64,000 nucleotides of DNA from Clostridia bacterium (GTDB taxonomy: Bacteria > Bacillota > Clostridia > Christensenellales > CAG-138): assembly GCA_017435905.1 (NCBI GenBank), contig JAFSEB010000046.1, positions 1,186 to 65,185 on the forward strand, given 5' to 3'. The notes beneath the pieces were generated by a model. It saw nothing but the letters and a program-made list of their open reading frames with translations, was not told the DNA's origin and did no database searches. Positions within the stretch are counted from its first letter, which is position 1; each line of letters begins with the position of its first letter. A program made the position numbers and the translations under genes. This document shows positions 1,826 to 34,396 of this stretch, piece after piece.

Positions 1826-2134
1826 TTATTTCATAAGTTTCTGAAGAGTTGCTGTCAGTTCATCGATGACCTCATCTTTTCCTTCCCTGATGTCGTGCAC
1901 TACACAGGTGTGGATGTGATTGGTCAGCAATTCCCTGTTGAACGCATTGATCGCTGCGGTAACAGCGGCAGACTGCATCAGAATATCGGTGCAGTAAGCA
2001 TCACGTTCAAGCATCCCTTTGATGCCTCGGATCTGTCCTTCAATTCGGTTCAGCCGGTTTACCAGCTTTTTATACTCCGCCTCAGACCGTTCCTTGGTCT
2101 TATGGGAGCAGCAACCCCCTTCACGTTTCGCCAT
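1826..2134 (-). CDS. csoR: CsoR-family copper-sensing transcriptional repressor
   Basis: MAKREGGCCSHKTKERSEAEYKKLVNRLNRIEGQIRGIKGML...YCTDILMQ...HIHTC carries the CsoR C-H-C ligand pattern. Start taken at MAKREGG inside ORF 1826..2167. Confidence 0.85.
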   Translation of the reverse strand: MAKREGGCCSHKTKERSEAEYKKLVNRLNRIEGQIRGIKGMLERDAYCTDILMQSAAVTAAINAFNRELLTNHIHTCVVHDIREGKDEVIDELTATLQKLMK

Positions 2135-2197
2135 AGAAGTACTTCCTTTCAAAAAACATGCATGCAATTAACTGATATCAGAAGTGTACGTCTATAT

Positions 2198-9317: not shown

Positions 9318-11528
9318 TTACCAGAGACCCATCTTGGGAGTCAGATAACCGTCGCCGTAGGGCAGGAGCGCTTCGGTGTAGCACTGCGGATCGCCGTGGT
9401 CGGAACCGATGGCGCCGAGGCCGCCCATGTCGGTGTTGTGCTCAGCACCGCAGGTGGTGTTGTTCTGTACATTGAGGAACTCGGTGGCGTTGTTCAGCGG
9501 GATCAGGTCGAAGCGGACGCAGTCGCCAAGAGCAGCTTCGATGCAGGTCTTGAGGACGTAGGCCTGGTTTTGACCGGTCTCATTGTAGCCAACGTGCGGA
9601 TAGTCGATGACGATCGGGTTGTCAGGGCTGACTTCAAAGCCAATGGTCTTCAGGTCTTCGATGGCAAGAGCCAGTTCCTGAGCGGCGAGTTCCGGATTGT
9701 ACCAGCCATCCCAACCGTCGGTGGAGAGGTTGGCTTCGTCCCAAACAACTACGGGGAACTCATCGGCGGTCAGCTGAGCCTGCACGATCTCACCGTACCA
9801 GGTGCCGGCGGGGAAGGTAGTGGCTTCACCGTTGATGTCGATGGTCACTTCTTCTGCCAGGGAAGCATAGGTGCCGGGAGTCATGGTGTTGCGGATGCTG
9901 ACAGACTTCAGATCCTCACCAACGCTCTGGGAGATGTAGGAAGCACGGTCGATGGCGAAGTTCAGAGCAAGACGGAAGTGCCTGTTCTGGAACGCAGCGC
10001 AGCTGAGCTCCTTCTCGGCATCGGTCTTCATGGAAGCGCCGGCGCCGTCAGCCATGTTGGCGTAGGTCTGGCGATGGAGGTTGAACCAGAAGAGGAAGGT
10101 CGCACGGCCGGTCTCGGAAGTGGTGGCATACTTTTCAAAGTCGCCGTTGGCCTTTGCGGTCTCGATCTGGGCAGCGCGGAGATACATGTAGGTGGTCAGA
10201 CCGTTCATGAAGTTGTCATAAGCGCGGGAAACGTCGCTGCCATCATCATAAACGAGGCTGAAGTTCTTGAGGGTAACGTTGGCAGCATTCCAGTAGCTCT
10301 CGTTGAGCACGTAGTTGACGGAGTTCTTCTCGGTCATGTTGGTGCAGAGGAACTGGCCGCTGTAGGGGATATGGTTCTGGTCGATACCGTAGGTGTAGCT
10401 GGAGGAAGCAGCAGCTTCGGAATACTCAGCAACGCCGAACGCACCGCCCTGGGAGAGGAAGTAGCTGCGGCAGAGGGGCAGGAAGTCGATGGACTGCCAC
10501 ATGGAATCGAAATAGGTGCAGGGGGTGTTGAGGGTGTACTGGAGGGTGAGGTCATCAAGCGCCTTGACGCCGACGGTGGAGAAGTCGGTGGTCTCACCGG
10601 TGAGGTAAGCAGTCATGCCCGCAACGTAGCTGCCGAGGGTGTAGGCATCCTGAAGGTCAGCCTGATGCTGTGCAGCGGCTACCCAGTCGTCAGCAACGAT
10701 GTCCGCAACCTTACGGCCCTGAGAGTCGACCCAGACCATACCGGGGCGGATCTTGATGGTGTAGGTGAGGCCATCGGGGGAGATCTCATAGCTCTCCGCA
10801 AGGTGGGGAGTGAGAACGCCTTCGGGATTGTAAACGTAGAGAAAGTCGTAAGAGGGGCCGATCAGCTTGCTGTCGTTGGAGGTGGCAGCAGCGAAGATGT
10901 CCCAGGTGGTGGCGTTGTCAACGAAGGTGTCAACAACGGTGTCGCTGAAGGTGTAGCCCTTGCCGGCAAGGTATTCCTTGACCTTGGTGGCATAGGTGCC
11001 GGTGCCGAGGCACTCGAGGTAGATCTTCTTGGTCTCTGCGTAATCCTCAGCGGTGATGATCTCGTTGGTGAGGATGTAGTCGCAGTAGTTGGTCATGCCG
11101 CCGCGCCAGGGAGCATAACCGCCGCTGCGGTAGACCTGACGGGTCATGATGTAGCCGGCAACGGGGCCGTACATGGGAGCACCGGTGGAAGCCTGAAGAG
11201 CCTTTGCTTCCGCAACGGCGAGGAGGGCATGGCGCTCGGATACGGTCGCAGCTTCCATGGCGGCGTTGTAGTACTCATAGAACTCGCCAAGGTTGGCCAT
11301 GTAGATCTCTTCGTCAGTCTCGTAGATGGCGAAGGGTTCCTCTACCTCTTCAGGCTCTTCGGAAGCTTCGGGTTCGGTGGAGGCTTCGGGAGCGGTGGAG
11401 GTTTCGGGAGCGGTGGAGGTTTCGGGGGCAGTGGAAGCTTCGGGAGCGGTGGTGTTATCGCCGCCGCAAGCGACCAGCAGGGGGAGCATCAGAGCCAGAA
11501 TAAGGGTGATTGCTGCCAGTTTCTTCAT
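9318..11528 (-). CDS. Family-5 (Opp/Dpp-type) extracellular solute-binding lipoprotein, 736 aa
   Basis: Signal peptide plus lipobox LLVAC(21)GG, a PEAST-rich linker, then a large SBP body. First gene of the five-gene transporter operon. AAAGGAG RBS. Confidence 0.85.
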   Translation of the reverse strand: MKKLAAITLILALMLPLLVACGGDNTTAPEASTAPETSTAPETSTAPEASTEPEASEEPEEVEEPFAIYETDEEIYMANLGEFYEYYNAAMEAATVSERHALLAVAEAKALQASTGAPMYGPVAGYIMTRQVYRSGGYAPWRGGMTNYCDYILTNEIITAEDYAETKKIYLECLGTGTYATKVKEYLAGKGYTFSDTVVDTFVDNATTWDIFAAATSNDSKLIGPSYDFLYVYNPEGVLTPHLAESYEISPDGLTYTIKIRPGMVWVDSQGRKVADIVADDWVAAAQHQADLQDAYTLGSYVAGMTAYLTGETTDFSTVGVKALDDLTLQYTLNTPCTYFDSMWQSIDFLPLCRSYFLSQGGAFGVAEYSEAAASSSYTYGIDQNHIPYSGQFLCTNMTEKNSVNYVLNESYWNAANVTLKNFSLVYDDGSDVSRAYDNFMNGLTTYMYLRAAQIETAKANGDFEKYATTSETGRATFLFWFNLHRQTYANMADGAGASMKTDAEKELSCAAFQNRHFRLALNFAIDRASYISQSVGEDLKSVSIRNTMTPGTYASLAEEVTIDINGEATTFPAGTWYGEIVQAQLTADEFPVVVWDEANLSTDGWDGWYNPELAAQELALAIEDLKTIGFEVSPDNPIVIDYPHVGYNETGQNQAYVLKTCIEAALGDCVRFDLIPLNNATEFLNVQNNTTCGAEHNTDMGGLGAIGSDHGDPQCYTEALLPYGDGYLTPKMGLW
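11335..11465 (-). repeat. Tandem ~18-bp coding repeats for the (T/S)APE(A/T)S linker of the SBP
   Basis: Plus strand shows GCTTCGGGAGCGGTGGAGGTTTCGGGAGCGGTGGAGGTTTCGGGGGCAGTGGAAGCTTCGGGAGCGGTGG. The protein reads TAPEASTAPETSTAPETSTAPEASTEPEASEEPEE. Confidence 0.8.
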
Positions 11529-11691
11529 TGACGTTCTCCTTTCGCAATTTGTTTCTTATCATTTCCGCGTGGTTTGGGATTGCGCGGAAACGGCTGCAAT
11601 AATTCGGCAAAGCCGAAATCAAGATCGAATTTGGAAATCGGGCAGAATTGTGAATAAATTCTTAAATTCGAAAAATGCGACGCCCTTCGTA

Positions 11692-11720
11692 TTGACAAAT
11701 ACCCGACGGGGGTATATATT
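11692..11720 (+). promoter_or_regulatory. Consensus-like promoter on the plus strand with an embedded CsoR-type operator (box A, 11699-11715)
   Basis: TTGACA (11692-11697)-a-ATACCCGACGGGGGTAT-ATATT. The -10 is TATATT at 11715-11720 with a 17-nt spacer. Perfect ATACCC-N5-GGGTAT palindrome. Confidence 0.5.
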
Positions 11721-11905
11721 GTGTTTGTCGGGATGGTTGCCGGACAAACAGGCAACCGTTCCATCCTGCCTCACGTTTCAAAAAAACGAAGAAAGCCGCC
11801 TTGCGTTTGCATAACAACATTGGCGAAATCTTTTGCTTCAACAGGATTCACTTCAAATAAACATTTTTATTTATATGCCCATGCGGAACCGCACGGGTAA
11901 AAGAG

Positions 11906-11922
11906 ATACCCAAATAGGGTAT
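11906..11922. promoter_or_regulatory. CsoR-type operator (box B), perfect palindrome
   Basis: ATACCCAAATAGGGTAT. The extended palindrome AGATACCC-aaata-GGGTATCT spans 11904-11924. It lies just downstream of the minus-strand promoter at 11927-11955. Confidence 0.55.
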
Positions 11923-11926
11923 CTAA

Positions 11927-11955
11927 ATGTTATACCCCTTCCGAGTATTTGTCAA
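11927..11955 (-). promoter_or_regulatory. Minus-strand promoter with an embedded CsoR-type operator (box C, 11932-11948). Candidate promoter of the Opp1 operon
   Basis: Minus strand reads TTGACA-a-ATACTCGGAAGGGGTAT-AACAT, the same layout as the csoR promoter, and both share the 12-mer GGGGTATAACAT. It lies 427 nt upstream of the oppA1 ATG. Confidence 0.5.
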
Positions 11956-12242
11956 TAGGCTTTTCACGAAGTTTTTGCTTTTTTGTCGTTTTTTACAATC
12001 AAACGCTGAAAATATTTGCATTGTTCCTGATACACATTACATTTCTTCATGCATGCACCTGTTTTTTCACTTGCATGCATGCTTTTTTTCTGTTGTCCGC
12101 ATGCATTCGCTTTCGCTTCACTTCACTGAAGCCATCCTGAAAAAAGTGCCGAAATCAGCCACCTTTCTTTCGTTCCTGTTTCAGCTTTTGCAGTGTGCGG
12201 GATGCGATGAGCGAAGGGCTGTTTTTTGCCGAACATAAAGAA

Positions 12243-12282
12243 AGCAAATGACCTTTTCTTTTATTTACAAAGGTCATTTGCT
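12243..12282. terminator. Bidirectional rho-independent terminator
   Basis: AGCAAATGACCTTT-12 nt loop-AAAGGTCATTTGCT, a 14-bp stem with an A-run on one side and a T-run on the other. It lies downstream of the minus-strand lipoprotein gene. Confidence 0.75.
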
Positions 12283-12420
12283 TCTTTATTATGGTTTTGC
12301 TAAATTCAGCTTGCTGAAAAGCCGTGCTTTTCGAGGCTGTTTCTTTCCATATATGGGGGGTATATCCGGAATATCCTTGTATTCAGGGCGTTTTCAGACC
12401 CCGTTTTCATATATTGCGCA

Positions 12421-13137
12421 TTATGCCCAGCGTCCGCCCCTGCGTCCGCCCCGGCAGCCGCCGCTGTAGCTTCCGGAATTTTCGCTGTAATCCCAGCTGC
12501 CGCCAACGGCATTTCCGTTTTCATCGGCACCCCAGCAGCCGTACCAGCCGTTGCCGTCCCAGCAGTAGTATTCACCGCTGAAGCAGCCATTCCTGTTGCT
12601 GTTCCAGCAGCCTTCCCAGTTTTCACCGTTCCAGCAGTAGTACGCATCGCCATCCCAGCAGTAATAGTCGCCGTTCCAGCAATAGTACTCCACATCGCTG
12701 CTGCCTTCAAAGGCAGGGATGCCGCCCTCATAGGTAAGGGTGCTGACATAGCTGACAGTCTCTTCCTGCGCTGCGGTGATCTGCGGTGCAGCTGCTGCCG
12801 CAGGCGCTTCGTAGCTTTCTTCCACAGGTGCGGCAGGCACACCGGGATCGGCAGCAGCATCCTGTACGGATGCCGCAAACTGTTCCTGCTGCGCTTCGGC
12901 GGAGGTTTCCCCATCTCCATCGGCCGCATACAGGTTATAATATGCCGCCAGCGCATCAAGATCCTCGACGCCCGTTGCGGCTGCAATTTCCATCACATCA
13001 TTTACATTGACTTTGCTCAGCAATTCCTCACTCACCCCGGGCAGGAGCGCACCCGTTTCGGTGCAGGCAGCCATCATGGGGACCGCCGCCAGGAACAGTG
13101 TGAGTGCCACGATCCGTTTCATCCAATCCCGTTTCAT
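12421..13137 (-). CDS. Cys/Trp/Tyr-rich repeat lipoprotein, hypothetical (no family recognised)
   Basis: MKRDWMKRIVALTLFLAAVPMMAAC lipobox, an acidic Ala/Pro linker, then a C-terminal region with four YYCW(N/D)G repeats plus GCW and GCF variants, ending in a GGCRGGRRGGRWA tail. AAAGGAG RBS before the ATG at 13137. Confidence 0.75.
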   Translation of the reverse strand: MKRDWMKRIVALTLFLAAVPMMAACTETGALLPGVSEELLSKVNVNDVMEIAAATGVEDLDALAAYYNLYAADGDGETSAEAQQEQFAASVQDAAADPGVPAAPVEESYEAPAAAAAPQITAAQEETVSYVSTLTYEGGIPAFEGSSDVEYYCWNGDYYCWDGDAYYCWNGENWEGCWNSNRNGCFSGEYYCWDGNGWYGCWGADENGNAVGGSWDYSENSGSYSGGCRGGRRGGRWA

Positions 13138-13192
13138 TTTTTCTCTCTTTTCTCCTTTCGTTTTTGATCTGCCTTGTTTTGGCATGCCTGAT

Positions 13193-13220
13193 TGTATACC
13201 CCACACAGGTATTTTGTCAA
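13193..13220 (-). promoter_or_regulatory. Promoter of the Cys/Trp-rich lipoprotein gene with an embedded CsoR-type operator (box E, 13196-13212)
   Basis: Minus strand reads TTGACA-aa-ATACCTGTGTGGGGTAT-ACAAT, nearly superimposable on the csoR promoter TTGACA-tg-ATACCTATACGGGGTAT-AACAT. Confidence 0.6.
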
Positions 13221-13479: not shown

Positions 13480-13770
13480 CAATTGGTCATACTATAAAAA
13501 TGCGCAGACGGAATTATGCCCGCATCAGAAGGTCAAGAGAGCCGGCGGCTGCTGTGAGCCGGTCCGGAAGATGCTGCGGCAGCCTCCTTCCCGAGCAGAG
13601 CGCCCCAACAAAACAGTAAGGCGTTCCGGTCGCCCCGTTACAGGCTATAAGCTTGACTGAGCTTTGAATTTGAGTGATCGCCCGTTTGCATTTGGCATGC
13701 AGCGGCGATAATCAGGGTGGTACCGCGATTGATTCGTCCCTGAAGCCGATAACGGCTTCAGGGATTTTTT
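13480..13770 (+). promoter_or_regulatory. T-box riboswitch leader of the ilv-leu operon (candidate Leu CUC specifier)
   Basis: AGAGAG bulge and GCUGUGA distal loop in stem I. F-box-like CCGTTA. Canonical T-box AATCAGGGTGGTACCGCG at 13710-13727 overlaps the terminator stem. CTC at 13584-13586 sits in the predicted specifier loop. Confidence 0.85.
13738..13770 (+). terminator. T-box leader terminator
   Basis: CCCTGAAGCCG-ataa-CGGCTTCAGGG followed by ATTTTTT. Confidence 0.85.
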
Positions 13771-34159: not shown

Positions 34160-34396
34160 AGTTAATGCGATGAACGGGACACACGGCAAACAACCGCCCC
34201 CAAGCGAGCTGCGGCACGGTGAGAGCGCAGCGGGAAACGGGTTCTGCACGCATCCCCCGTGAGTGCGCAGCCGAACTTTTATCAGTAAGCTGCGCCGTGA
34301 GCGCACGTTACAGCGCAAATGGAGCGGGCGGCGTATGCCGTCAATCCGGGTGGTACCGCGCAGCGTCCTGCGTCCCGTTTTGGGACGCAGTTTTTT
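34160..34396 (+). promoter_or_regulatory. T-box riboswitch leader of ileS (candidate Ile AUC specifier)
   Basis: GGUGAGA distal loop, F-box-like CGTTAC, T-box AATCCGGGTGGTACCGCG at 34343-34360. Terminator CTGCGTCCC-gtttt-GGGACGCAG plus TTTTTT at 34368-34396. ATC at 34252-34254 in the predicted specifier loop. Confidence 0.85.

What the first reader, a model, noticed from the sequence alone, without database searches (positions are those of the whole stretch)
11692..11955. Two face-to-face TTGACA promoters, each with a CsoR box in the spacer, plus a third box between them
A plus-strand promoter (TTGACA 11692-11697, box A, TATATT) points right. A minus-strand promoter (TTGACA 11955-11950, box C, TATAAC/TAACAT) points left. 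They are 260 bp apart, so their transcripts would overlap in antisense.

Box B, a perfect palindrome extended to AGATACCC/GGGTATCT, sits just downstream of the minus-strand promoter. It would also fold as an RNA hairpin followed by CUUUUAC.

I found no convincing small ORF with an RBS between the promoters. The interval also holds mutually exclusive inverted repeats (GGTTGCC/GGCAACC versus GTTTGTC/GACAAAC, 11725-11765) that look like alternative leader structures.

Convergent, co-repressed promoters suggest transcriptional interference or an antisense RNA layer on top of CsoR control of the Opp1 leader.
Basis: seen in the sequence. Interest (0 to 1): 0.65.

Follow-up and report, generated by a model that had tools for sequence, protein, structure and literature searches.

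The report
Copper-switched promoter pair facing each other
In front of a copper-regulated transporter operon of an uncultured gut Clostridia bacterium, the normal copper-repressor-controlled promoter is faced by a second, equally copper-controlled promoter. The second promoter probably makes a roughly 365-base non-coding antisense RNA, a layout found only in this species and not yet backed by RNA data.

Summary
Two sigma-70-type promoters face each other, and each has a CsoR operator in its spacer:
- P(+) has its -35 at 11692 and matches 11 of 12 consensus positions.
- P(-) has its -35 at 11955 and matches 10 of 12.
- A third operator, box B, lies just after the -10 of P(-).

Only six sites in the 2.24-Mb genome match the operator at 11 of 12 or better. 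Five lie in this window and the sixth is a chance coding-region hit.

P(-) with boxes C and B is the ordinary promoter of the Opp-like operon. Every relative examined has the same co-directional two-box design. P(+) is the unusual part. It sits inside the operon's roughly 390-nt leader on the opposite strand, and none of the relatives or 400 other genomes of the order has it.

I found a plus-strand-only intrinsic terminator at 12048-12090. Together with P(+) it defines a unit of about 365 nt that starts with a stable 5' hairpin and covers both the first ~194 nt of the leader and P(-). Indels in other strains break every ORF, so the unit is non-coding.

My best reading is a copper-induced cis-antisense RNA acting by transcriptional interference on the importer operon (confidence 0.45). 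No transcript data cover it, so a functionless duplicated promoter remains a serious rival.

The parts
11692..11720 (+). P(+): -35 TTGACA (11692-97), 17-nt spacer holding CsoR box A (11699-11715), -10 TATATT (11715-20). The predicted start is near 11727.
   Evidence: 11/12 match; box 12/12. The -35 and -10 are unchanged in seven other strains.
11730..11762 (+). A 12-bp hairpin (core GGTTGCC/GGCAACC) that begins 3 nt after the predicted P(+) start. It would act as a 5' stabiliser of the plus RNA, and it also folds in the minus-strand leader.
   Evidence: -21.5 kcal/mol, z = -3.8. SNP 11738 T>C keeps a G.U pair only in the minus RNA.
11722..11750 (-). Alternative pairing TGTTTGTC/GACAAACA, interleaved with the hairpin above. 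It is possible only in the minus-strand leader.
   Evidence: interleaving seen in 0.7% of shuffles. The terminal pair is broken by 11743 G>C in one strain.
11878..11897 (-). Hairpin CCCGUGCGG-UU-CCGCAUGGG at about +24 to +43 of the P(-) transcript. It is fully paired in the minus RNA through a G.U pair, and has an A.C mismatch in the plus RNA.
   Evidence: A compensatory pair, 11883 G>A with 11892 C>T, occurs together in five runs.
11904..11924 (.). CsoR box B, a perfect palindrome. It is the second operator of P(-) and covers about -4 to +17 of that promoter.
   Evidence: 12/12. The same position is occupied in relatives. It is invariant in the strains.
11927..11955 (-). P(-): -35 TTGACA (11955-50), spacer with CsoR box C (11932-11948), -10 TAACAT (11932-27). 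The predicted start is near 11920. This is the operon promoter.
   Evidence: 10/12; box 11/12. It is orthologous by design to the promoters of G124, G141 and G143.
11958..12000 (-). A-tract-rich stretch just upstream of the P(-) -35, resembling an UP element. It reads as U runs in the plus RNA.
   Evidence: Sequence. This is inference only.
12048..12090 (+). Plus-strand intrinsic terminator: a 10-bp stem CATGCATGCA/TGCATGCATG, a 14-nt loop, then C and U7. The minus strand has no U run after the stem.
   Evidence: -15.9 kcal/mol, z = -5.4. SNP 12052 C>T keeps a U.G pair in the plus RNA but gives an A.C mismatch in the minus RNA. Other strain changes fall in the loop.
12240..12288 (.). Long AT-rich hairpin with U runs on both sides. 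It is the two-way terminator of the upstream lipoprotein gene and a back-stop for the plus RNA.
   Evidence: -22.6 and -25.6 kcal/mol.
9318..11528 (-). First gene of the operon: a 736-aa family-5 solute-binding lipoprotein. Two permeases, two ATPases and a 407-aa protein follow it.
   Evidence: PF00496, 6e-30. RNA contigs cover 11187-11651.

Best explanation
P(-) with operators C and B is the normal CsoR-repressed promoter of the Opp-like importer operon. It gives a leader of about 390 nt.

P(+) with operator A is a second real CsoR-repressed promoter that arose in this species inside that leader, on the opposite strand. It makes a non-coding RNA of about 365 nt, from roughly 11727 to 12090. 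This RNA begins with a stable hairpin and ends at its own terminator. It is complementary to the first ~194 nt of the leader and runs across P(-) itself.

When copper releases CsoR, both promoters fire. Polymerases from the stronger-looking P(+) collide with or dislodge those at P(-), and the two RNAs can pair. The importer operon is therefore damped, delayed or given a threshold relative to the exporter (csoR-copA) and the lipoprotein gene, which have no opposing promoter.

Shown here: the sequence elements, their rarity, their absence in relatives, the non-coding nature of the stretch, and the terminator fold. Inferred: that P(+) fires, that CsoR binds box A, and the effect on the operon.
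For: - P(+) is the best sigma-70 match of the four CsoR promoters in the window (11/12).
- Its core is 93% identical over 27 nt to the csoR-copA promoter of a genus mate.
- Box A is one of only two perfect operators in the genome. It satisfies the TAC-N9-GTA requirement for CsoR binding (PMC3902906).
- A single CsoR with the Cys-His-Cys copper ligands is encoded in the window.
- A plus-strand-only terminator lies 365 nt downstream, and nothing else on that strand could use it.
- A 5' hairpin starts at +4 of the predicted RNA.
- Strain SNP 12052 keeps the terminator stem paired only in the plus RNA.
- Both promoters' hexamers are unchanged in seven other strains, while 26 sites vary in the 501 nt around them.
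- Frameshifting indels at 11781, 11872 and 12068 rule out the ORFs. All five SNPs in the 79-aa ORF are non-synonymous.
- Co-induced sense and antisense pairs that act by interference are known, for example S1290/opuB (PMC7186363) and ubiG (PMC2566862).
Against: - No RNA evidence exists. Three metatranscriptomes hold only 11187-11651 at depth 3-5, and no RNA run holds 11700-12110.
- P(+) is absent from all relatives with the same operon and from 400 genomes of the order. There is therefore no evolutionary conservation beyond one species.
- The lack of changes in the functional elements is not statistically significant: 1 variable site observed against about 3 expected.
- SNP 11738 weakens the 5' hairpin in the plus RNA.
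- The RNA contigs stop at 11651, well short of the predicted P(-) start. This could mean the leader is processed, or that the real start lies elsewhere.
Confidence: 0.45

Rival explanations
1. P(+) is an evolutionary by-product. On this view it is a copy of the common TTGACA-A-ATACC...GGTAT-A promoter module that landed inverted in the leader. It may fire, but it has no selected role, and the hairpin and U run at 12048-12090 are a coincidence of the GCATGC palindromes.
For: P(+) is restricted to one species. P(+) and P(-) share a 13-nt inverted repeat, TATTGACAAATAC, and 27 of 31 positions, which is consistent with a recent duplication. There is no transcript evidence. Strain-level conservation is not significant.
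Against: The promoter is near-perfect and is kept intact in all eight strain versions. It is paired with a strand-specific terminator and a 5' hairpin at the positions expected for an RNA gene. A strong unopposed antisense promoter inside a leader is unlikely to have no effect.
Confidence: 0.3
2. Box A works mainly as a third, distal operator for the operon. CsoR bound there would block polymerases coming from P(-) at about +205, or would help CsoR load at boxes B and C. On this view the promoter hexamers around it are incidental.
For: Box A lies inside the P(-) transcription unit. CsoR operators placed after the start site are normal in this family (box B and its equivalents in relatives).
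Against: A perfect TTGACA 1 nt from the box and a TATATT overlapping its end, at the ideal 17-nt spacing, match the exact layout of working CsoR promoters. A pure roadblock site needs neither. Relatives manage with two boxes.
Confidence: 0.12
3. P(+) drives a small protein, or a trans-acting small RNA whose targets lie elsewhere. On this view its overlap with the operon leader is incidental.
For: It has a discrete promoter-to-terminator unit. Relatives carry small cysteine-rich genes next to their CsoR promoters.
Against: No ORF in it has a ribosome-binding site. Indels in other strains break every ORF. No second copy or extended complementarity exists elsewhere in the genome. There is no Rfam match and no remnant of copZ, csoR or the cysteine-rich genes.
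Confidence: 0.08

Closest known systems
CsoR-repressed cop promoters of Firmicutes and Actinobacteria (type 2 operator ATATACCCC-N-GGGGTATAT; PMC3902906)
   Same: The operator sequence, the TAC-N9-GTA dyad and the operator placed inside the promoter spacer are the same. A second operator lies just downstream, as in the genus mate's csoR-copA promoter.
   Different: Here one operator-promoter module points against the operon it sits in. The regulon also includes an Opp-type importer as well as the exporter.
S1290 antisense RNA of the Bacillus subtilis opuB operon (PMC7186363)
   Same: The same stress switches on both an ABC importer operon and an opposing antisense promoter. In that system, interference between converging polymerases delays induction of the importer.
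   Different: S1290 is driven by a different regulator (SigB) from the sense promoter and covers the coding region. Here both sides carry operators for the same repressor, and the overlap is confined to the 5' leader and the sense promoter.
[quoted passage not shown]
   Same: This is also a Clostridia operon with two functional convergent promoters, in which an antisense RNA tunes the sense transcript in response to a related signal.
   Different: There the antisense promoter lies downstream of the operon and is gated by an S-box riboswitch. Here it lies in the leader and is gated by a protein repressor.
prgQ/prgX of Enterococcus plasmid pCF10 and phage 186 pR/pL face-to-face promoters (discussed in PMC4519249 and PMC5001618)
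   Same: Face-to-face promoters a few hundred bp or less apart, in which polymerase collision plus RNA pairing set the output.
   Different: Those pairs form a two-state switch between two protein-coding programmes. Here one side is non-coding, and both sides are opened by the same signal.

Membership tests
CsoR type 2 operator | 5'-TAC-N9-GTA-3' dyad within a G/C-tract pseudopalindrome (ATACCC-N5-GGGTAT) | tested here: met
   Boxes A and B match 12/12 and box C matches 11/12. Only six such sites exist in the genome. The definition comes from PMC3902906.
CsoR type 2 operator | A cognate CsoR with Cu(I) ligands Cys-His-Cys is encoded in the genome | tested here: met
   The ORF at 1826-2167 (-) matches PF02583 at 5.5e-30. 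By inspection, Cys, His at +25 and Cys at +29 are present. It is followed by the genome's only CopA-type P-type ATPase.
CsoR type 2 operator | Copper-reversible binding of CsoR to the site | not testable with these tools
   This needs EMSA or footprinting with purified protein.
Sigma-70-type promoter | -35 and -10 hexamers at 16-18 nt spacing | tested here: met
   P(+) matches 11/12 and P(-) matches 10/12, both with 17-nt spacers.
Sigma-70-type promoter | A mapped transcription start downstream | tested here: inconclusive
   No RNA run holds 11700-12110. RNA contigs cover only 11187-11651 at depth 3-5.
Cis-antisense RNA / convergent-promoter interference system | Opposing promoters whose transcripts overlap | tested here: met
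   The predicted starts near 11727 (+) and 11920 (-) give an overlap of about 194 nt. This rests on sequence only.
Cis-antisense RNA / convergent-promoter interference system | A defined 3' end for the antisense RNA | tested here: met
   A plus-strand-only hairpin followed by U7 lies at 12048-12090.
Cis-antisense RNA / convergent-promoter interference system | Both RNAs are detected and the antisense promoter affects sense output | not testable with these tools
   Public metatranscriptomes are too thin. Reporter or Northern experiments are needed.
Cis-antisense RNA / convergent-promoter interference system | The arrangement is kept in related genomes | tested here: not met
   It is absent in G124, G141, G143, the metagenome loci with captured upstream DNA, and 400 genomes of the order. 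It is kept only within the species.
Small protein gene | An ORF with a ribosome-binding site, kept in frame among strains | tested here: not met
   No SD-plus-start combination exists on the plus strand between the promoters. Indels at 11781, 11872 and 12068 break the ORFs. All five SNPs in the 79-aa minus-strand ORF are non-synonymous.
Known RNA family (Rfam) | A match at or near the gathering score | tested here: not met
   Between 11700 and 12100 there is nothing at E <= 1 and one weak chance-level hit (PrrF, 18.8 bits against a gathering score of 90, E 1.9). The only hits at E < 0.01 sit on the 12240-12288 hairpin.

The most novel reading that the evidence does not exclude
One metal repressor gates both a sense promoter (two operators) and an opposing antisense promoter (one operator) in the leader of an importer operon. 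On this reading copper dose and time are filtered. The single-operator antisense promoter opens first and holds the importer off. The importer comes on only under strong or lasting copper stress, while the exporter responds at once. This would be the first CsoR-controlled antisense RNA and a natural incoherent feed-forward circuit built from one repressor.
Probability: 0.25. Interest if true: 0.55.

Novelty: new variant of a known kind. Interest (0 to 1): 0.36.

Why it matters
Metal-sensor regulons are usually described as simple on/off sets of co-directional promoters. A repressor that opens a promoter and its own antisense brake together would show how one sensor can give different genes in one regulon different thresholds or timing. 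Here the contrast is between an importer on one side and the exporter and a surface protein on the other.

The finding also defines a compact cassette of about 700 bp that can be tested directly in a laboratory host. Its weight is limited because it occurs in a single uncultured species and has no expression data.

Tried and rejected
- **Riboswitch or known RNA.** Rfam at gathering and at permissive thresholds gave nothing relevant.
- **Small ORFs.** The candidates were the 55-aa and 103-aa ORFs on the plus strand and the 38-aa and 79-aa ORFs on the minus strand. All were rejected on missing ribosome-binding sites, strain indels and an all-non-synonymous SNP pattern.
- **Decayed gene remnant** (copZ, csoR, cysteine-rich proteins, lipoprotein). 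tblastn gave only chance-level hits.
- **Mobile or phage/plasmid cassette.** There was no match in phage or plasmid collections or in 41 relatives.
- **Trans targets or second copies in the genome.** None were found.
- **Invertible segment or misassembly.** There were no alternative joints, and single contigs from four other samples span the whole stretch.
- **A separate minus-strand promoter near the RNA contig end at 11651.** No acceptable -35/-10 exists there.
- **H-type pseudoknot from the interleaved repeats.** The connecting loops are 1 nt long, which is too short to cross a 7-bp stem. This is my own reasoning.
- **Literature on CsoR plus antisense RNA.** Two full-text searches returned no relevant paper.

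Full report
**Setting**

The window comes from a 2.24-Mb metagenome-assembled genome of an uncultured Clostridia bacterium. The same species is found in animal gut metagenomes, sheep among them. The genes around the finding all lie on the minus strand:
- a Cys/Trp/Tyr-rich lipoprotein gene (12421-13206);
- an Opp-like ABC operon: a 736-aa solute-binding protein (9318-11528), two permeases, two ATPases and a 407-aa protein;
- csoR (1826-2167), then copA.

This CsoR has the Cys-His-Cys copper ligands, and no second CsoR-linked CopA-type copper exporter turned up in the genome.

**The observation**

- P(+) is TTGACA-17-TATATT (11692-11720, 11/12), with box A in the spacer.
- P(-) is TTGACA-17-TAACAT (11955-11927, 10/12), with box C in the spacer.
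- Box B is a perfect extended palindrome at 11904-11924.

A whole-genome scan for ATACCC-N5-GGGTAT found two perfect sites where 0.13 are expected by chance, and these are boxes A and B. It found six sites at 11/12 or better. Five are in this window: boxes A, B and C, one in the csoR promoter (2201) and one in the lipoprotein promoter (13196). The sixth lies inside a coding region on another contig.

All three boxes satisfy the TAC-N9-GTA dyad that CsoR needs for binding (PMC3902906).

The layout is not an assembly artefact. Contigs from seven other metagenomes carry it. In four samples a single contig spans 11640-12140, and three of those four differ from the window at 12-17 positions.

**Which promoter is the ordinary one**

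Relatives with the same operon were found in three species genomes, where the solute-binding protein is 56-68% identical, and in 13 metagenome loci.

Wherever the upstream DNA was captured, there is exactly one CsoR promoter. It is co-directional with the operon and built as TTGACA-A-box-(T)ATTAT or AATAT, with a second box about 16 nt further on. The csoR-copA promoter of a genus mate has the same two-box layout.

P(-) with boxes C and B follows this design. The 'third box' is therefore the second operator of P(-) and covers its start site.

In the relatives, a further CsoR promoter downstream of the transporter genes drives copA-copZ. This places the importer firmly inside a copper regulon.

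**What is unusual**

P(+) sits 165-190 nt upstream of the solute-binding protein's start codon. That puts it inside the roughly 390-nt leader made from P(-), pointing the opposite way.

None of the relatives has an antisense promoter in the leader. A strict search for two such promoter-operator modules facing each other within 40-400 nt matched only this genome among 401 genomes of the order.

The core of P(+) is a textbook CsoR promoter. It is 93% identical over 27 nt to the genus mate's csoR-copA promoter, and it is the best consensus match of the four CsoR promoters in the window.

**A transcription unit for P(+)**

The automated scan missed a plus-strand terminator because its loop is long. 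It has a 10-bp stem, CATGCATGCA/TGCATGCATG (12048-12057 and 12072-12081), followed by C and U7. Its free energy is -15.9 kcal/mol with z = -5.4.

On the minus strand the same hairpin is followed by AAGAAAUG, so it terminates only plus-strand transcription. The only plus-strand promoter upstream of it is P(+).

The predicted RNA runs from about 11727 to 12090, roughly 365 nt. It begins 3 nt into a 12-bp hairpin (-21.5 kcal/mol) and as a whole folds better than shuffles (z = -3.9). It is complementary to the first ~194 nt of the P(-) transcript, then crosses boxes B and C and P(-) itself.

**Coding or not**

No ORF on the plus strand between the promoters has a ribosome-binding site.

Other strains carry a 1-nt insertion at 11781, a 2-nt deletion at 11872 and a 1-nt deletion at 12068. 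These frameshift the 55-aa and 103-aa plus-strand ORFs and the 38-aa minus-strand ORF.

A 79-aa minus-strand ORF (11764-11525) has a GAGG before its ATG, and its stop overlaps the solute-binding protein's start. However, all five strain SNPs inside it change the amino acid.

No remnant of copZ, csoR or the cysteine-rich genes of relatives is detectable. The stretch is non-coding.

**Hints from strain variation**

Twenty-six sites vary across 501 nt among eight strain versions. None falls in either promoter's hexamers or in boxes B and C. Box A has one half-site change (11704 C>G) and one central change (11707). This is fewer changes than expected, but not significantly so (1 observed against about 3 expected).

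Three changes are informative about structure:
- 11883 G>A and 11892 C>T occur together in five runs. They convert a G-C pair to A-T in the hairpin at 11878-11897. That hairpin is fully paired only in the minus RNA (G.U against A.C), at about +24 to +43 of the P(-) transcript.
- 12052 C>T keeps a U.G pair in the plus-RNA terminator stem but would give an A.C mismatch in the minus RNA.
- 11738 T>C keeps a G.U pair in the minus RNA but gives a C.A mismatch in the plus RNA's 5' hairpin.

These few events fit transcription of both strands, but they are too few to prove it.

**RNA data**

No RNA run in the index holds 11700-12110. Three metatranscriptomes from one study contain only fragments covering 11187-11651 at depth 3-5.

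One contig ends at 11651 in a fold-back, as happens when reverse transcriptase reaches an RNA 5' end. No promoter fits there. It may therefore be a processing site, which would suit cleavage of a sense/antisense duplex further upstream. With one thin contig this remains anecdotal.

**Mechanism I commit to**

Without copper, CsoR occupies A, B and C and both promoters are shut. With copper, both open.

P(+) has the better -10 and one operator. P(-) has a weaker -10, two operators and an A-tract upstream. Polymerases from P(+) run over P(-), and polymerases from P(-) run over P(+). The two RNAs can also pair over about 194 nt. The net effect is to lower, delay or set a threshold on importer expression relative to csoR-copA and the lipoprotein gene, which face no opposing promoter.

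Working precedents exist:
- the stress-induced S1290 RNA, which delays opuB importer induction by polymerase interference in B. subtilis (PMC7186363);
- the convergent promoters of the ubiG operon in C. acetobutylicum (PMC2566862);
- modelling of such promoter pairs (PMC4519249, PMC5001618).

I put this reading at 0.45. The main rival, at 0.30, is that P(+) is a recently duplicated promoter module without a selected role. This is suggested by the 13-nt inverted repeat shared by the two promoters and by the restriction to one species.

**The interleaved repeats**

The interleaved repeats are statistically unusual. The GGTTGCC/GGCAACC hairpin dominates both folds. The left arm of the rival pairing lies before the P(+) start, and one strain breaks that pairing. 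I see no U run or ribosome-binding site that either form would hide, so a switch function is unsupported.

**Verdict**

This is a new variant of a known kind of control. I found no report of a CsoR-controlled antisense RNA in the searchable literature. Interest is moderate to low until a transcript is shown.

Noticed in passing
window 11878-11897: Strain SNPs 11883 G>A and 11892 C>T always occur together, in five runs, and swap a G-C pair for A-T in a 9-bp hairpin. The hairpin lies near the 5' end of the P(-) transcript and is probably a 5' stabiliser of the operon mRNA.
   Followed up: partly
window 11187-11651: In three metatranscriptomes only the 5' end of the solute-binding-protein mRNA and 123 nt of its leader are assembled. 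One contig folds back exactly at 11651, which suggests an RNA 5' end (a processing site?) well downstream of the predicted P(-) start.
   Followed up: partly
L029 14757-14909 (-), and L002 2231-2722 (+): Relatives carry small cysteine-rich genes between the CsoR promoter and the solute-binding-protein gene. G141 has a 50-aa peptide with a good AGGAGG site. G124 has a secreted Cys/Gly/Tyr/Asn-rich protein of about 164 aa. These are possible copper-binding partners of the transporter.
   Followed up: no
L028 3266, L029 1861, L030 17559: In relatives a further CsoR-box promoter directly after the transporter genes drives copA (and copZ in G124). The Opp-like importer and the copper exporter are therefore neighbours in one regulon across genera.
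   Followed up: partly
L030 7936-7962: Directly after csoR in G143, a perfect CsoR-type palindrome is extended to an 11-bp stem followed by a T run. It could serve as both terminator and operator.
   Followed up: no
window 12048-12106: The 'GCATGCA palindromes' noted by another first-stage finding are largely explained. The first two form the stem of the plus-strand terminator. The third (12099-12106) remains unexplained.
   Followed up: partly
window 11370-11460: The repeated Ala/Pro/Glu/Thr/Ser linker after the lipobox of the solute-binding protein varies in length between strains, with 21-nt and 3-nt deletions.
   Followed up: no
window 13496-13744 and 34161-34380: Two T-box leaders score just above the Rfam gathering score. 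The first precedes the ilvB-ilvN-ilvC-ilvD-leuA-leuCD cluster.
   Followed up: no
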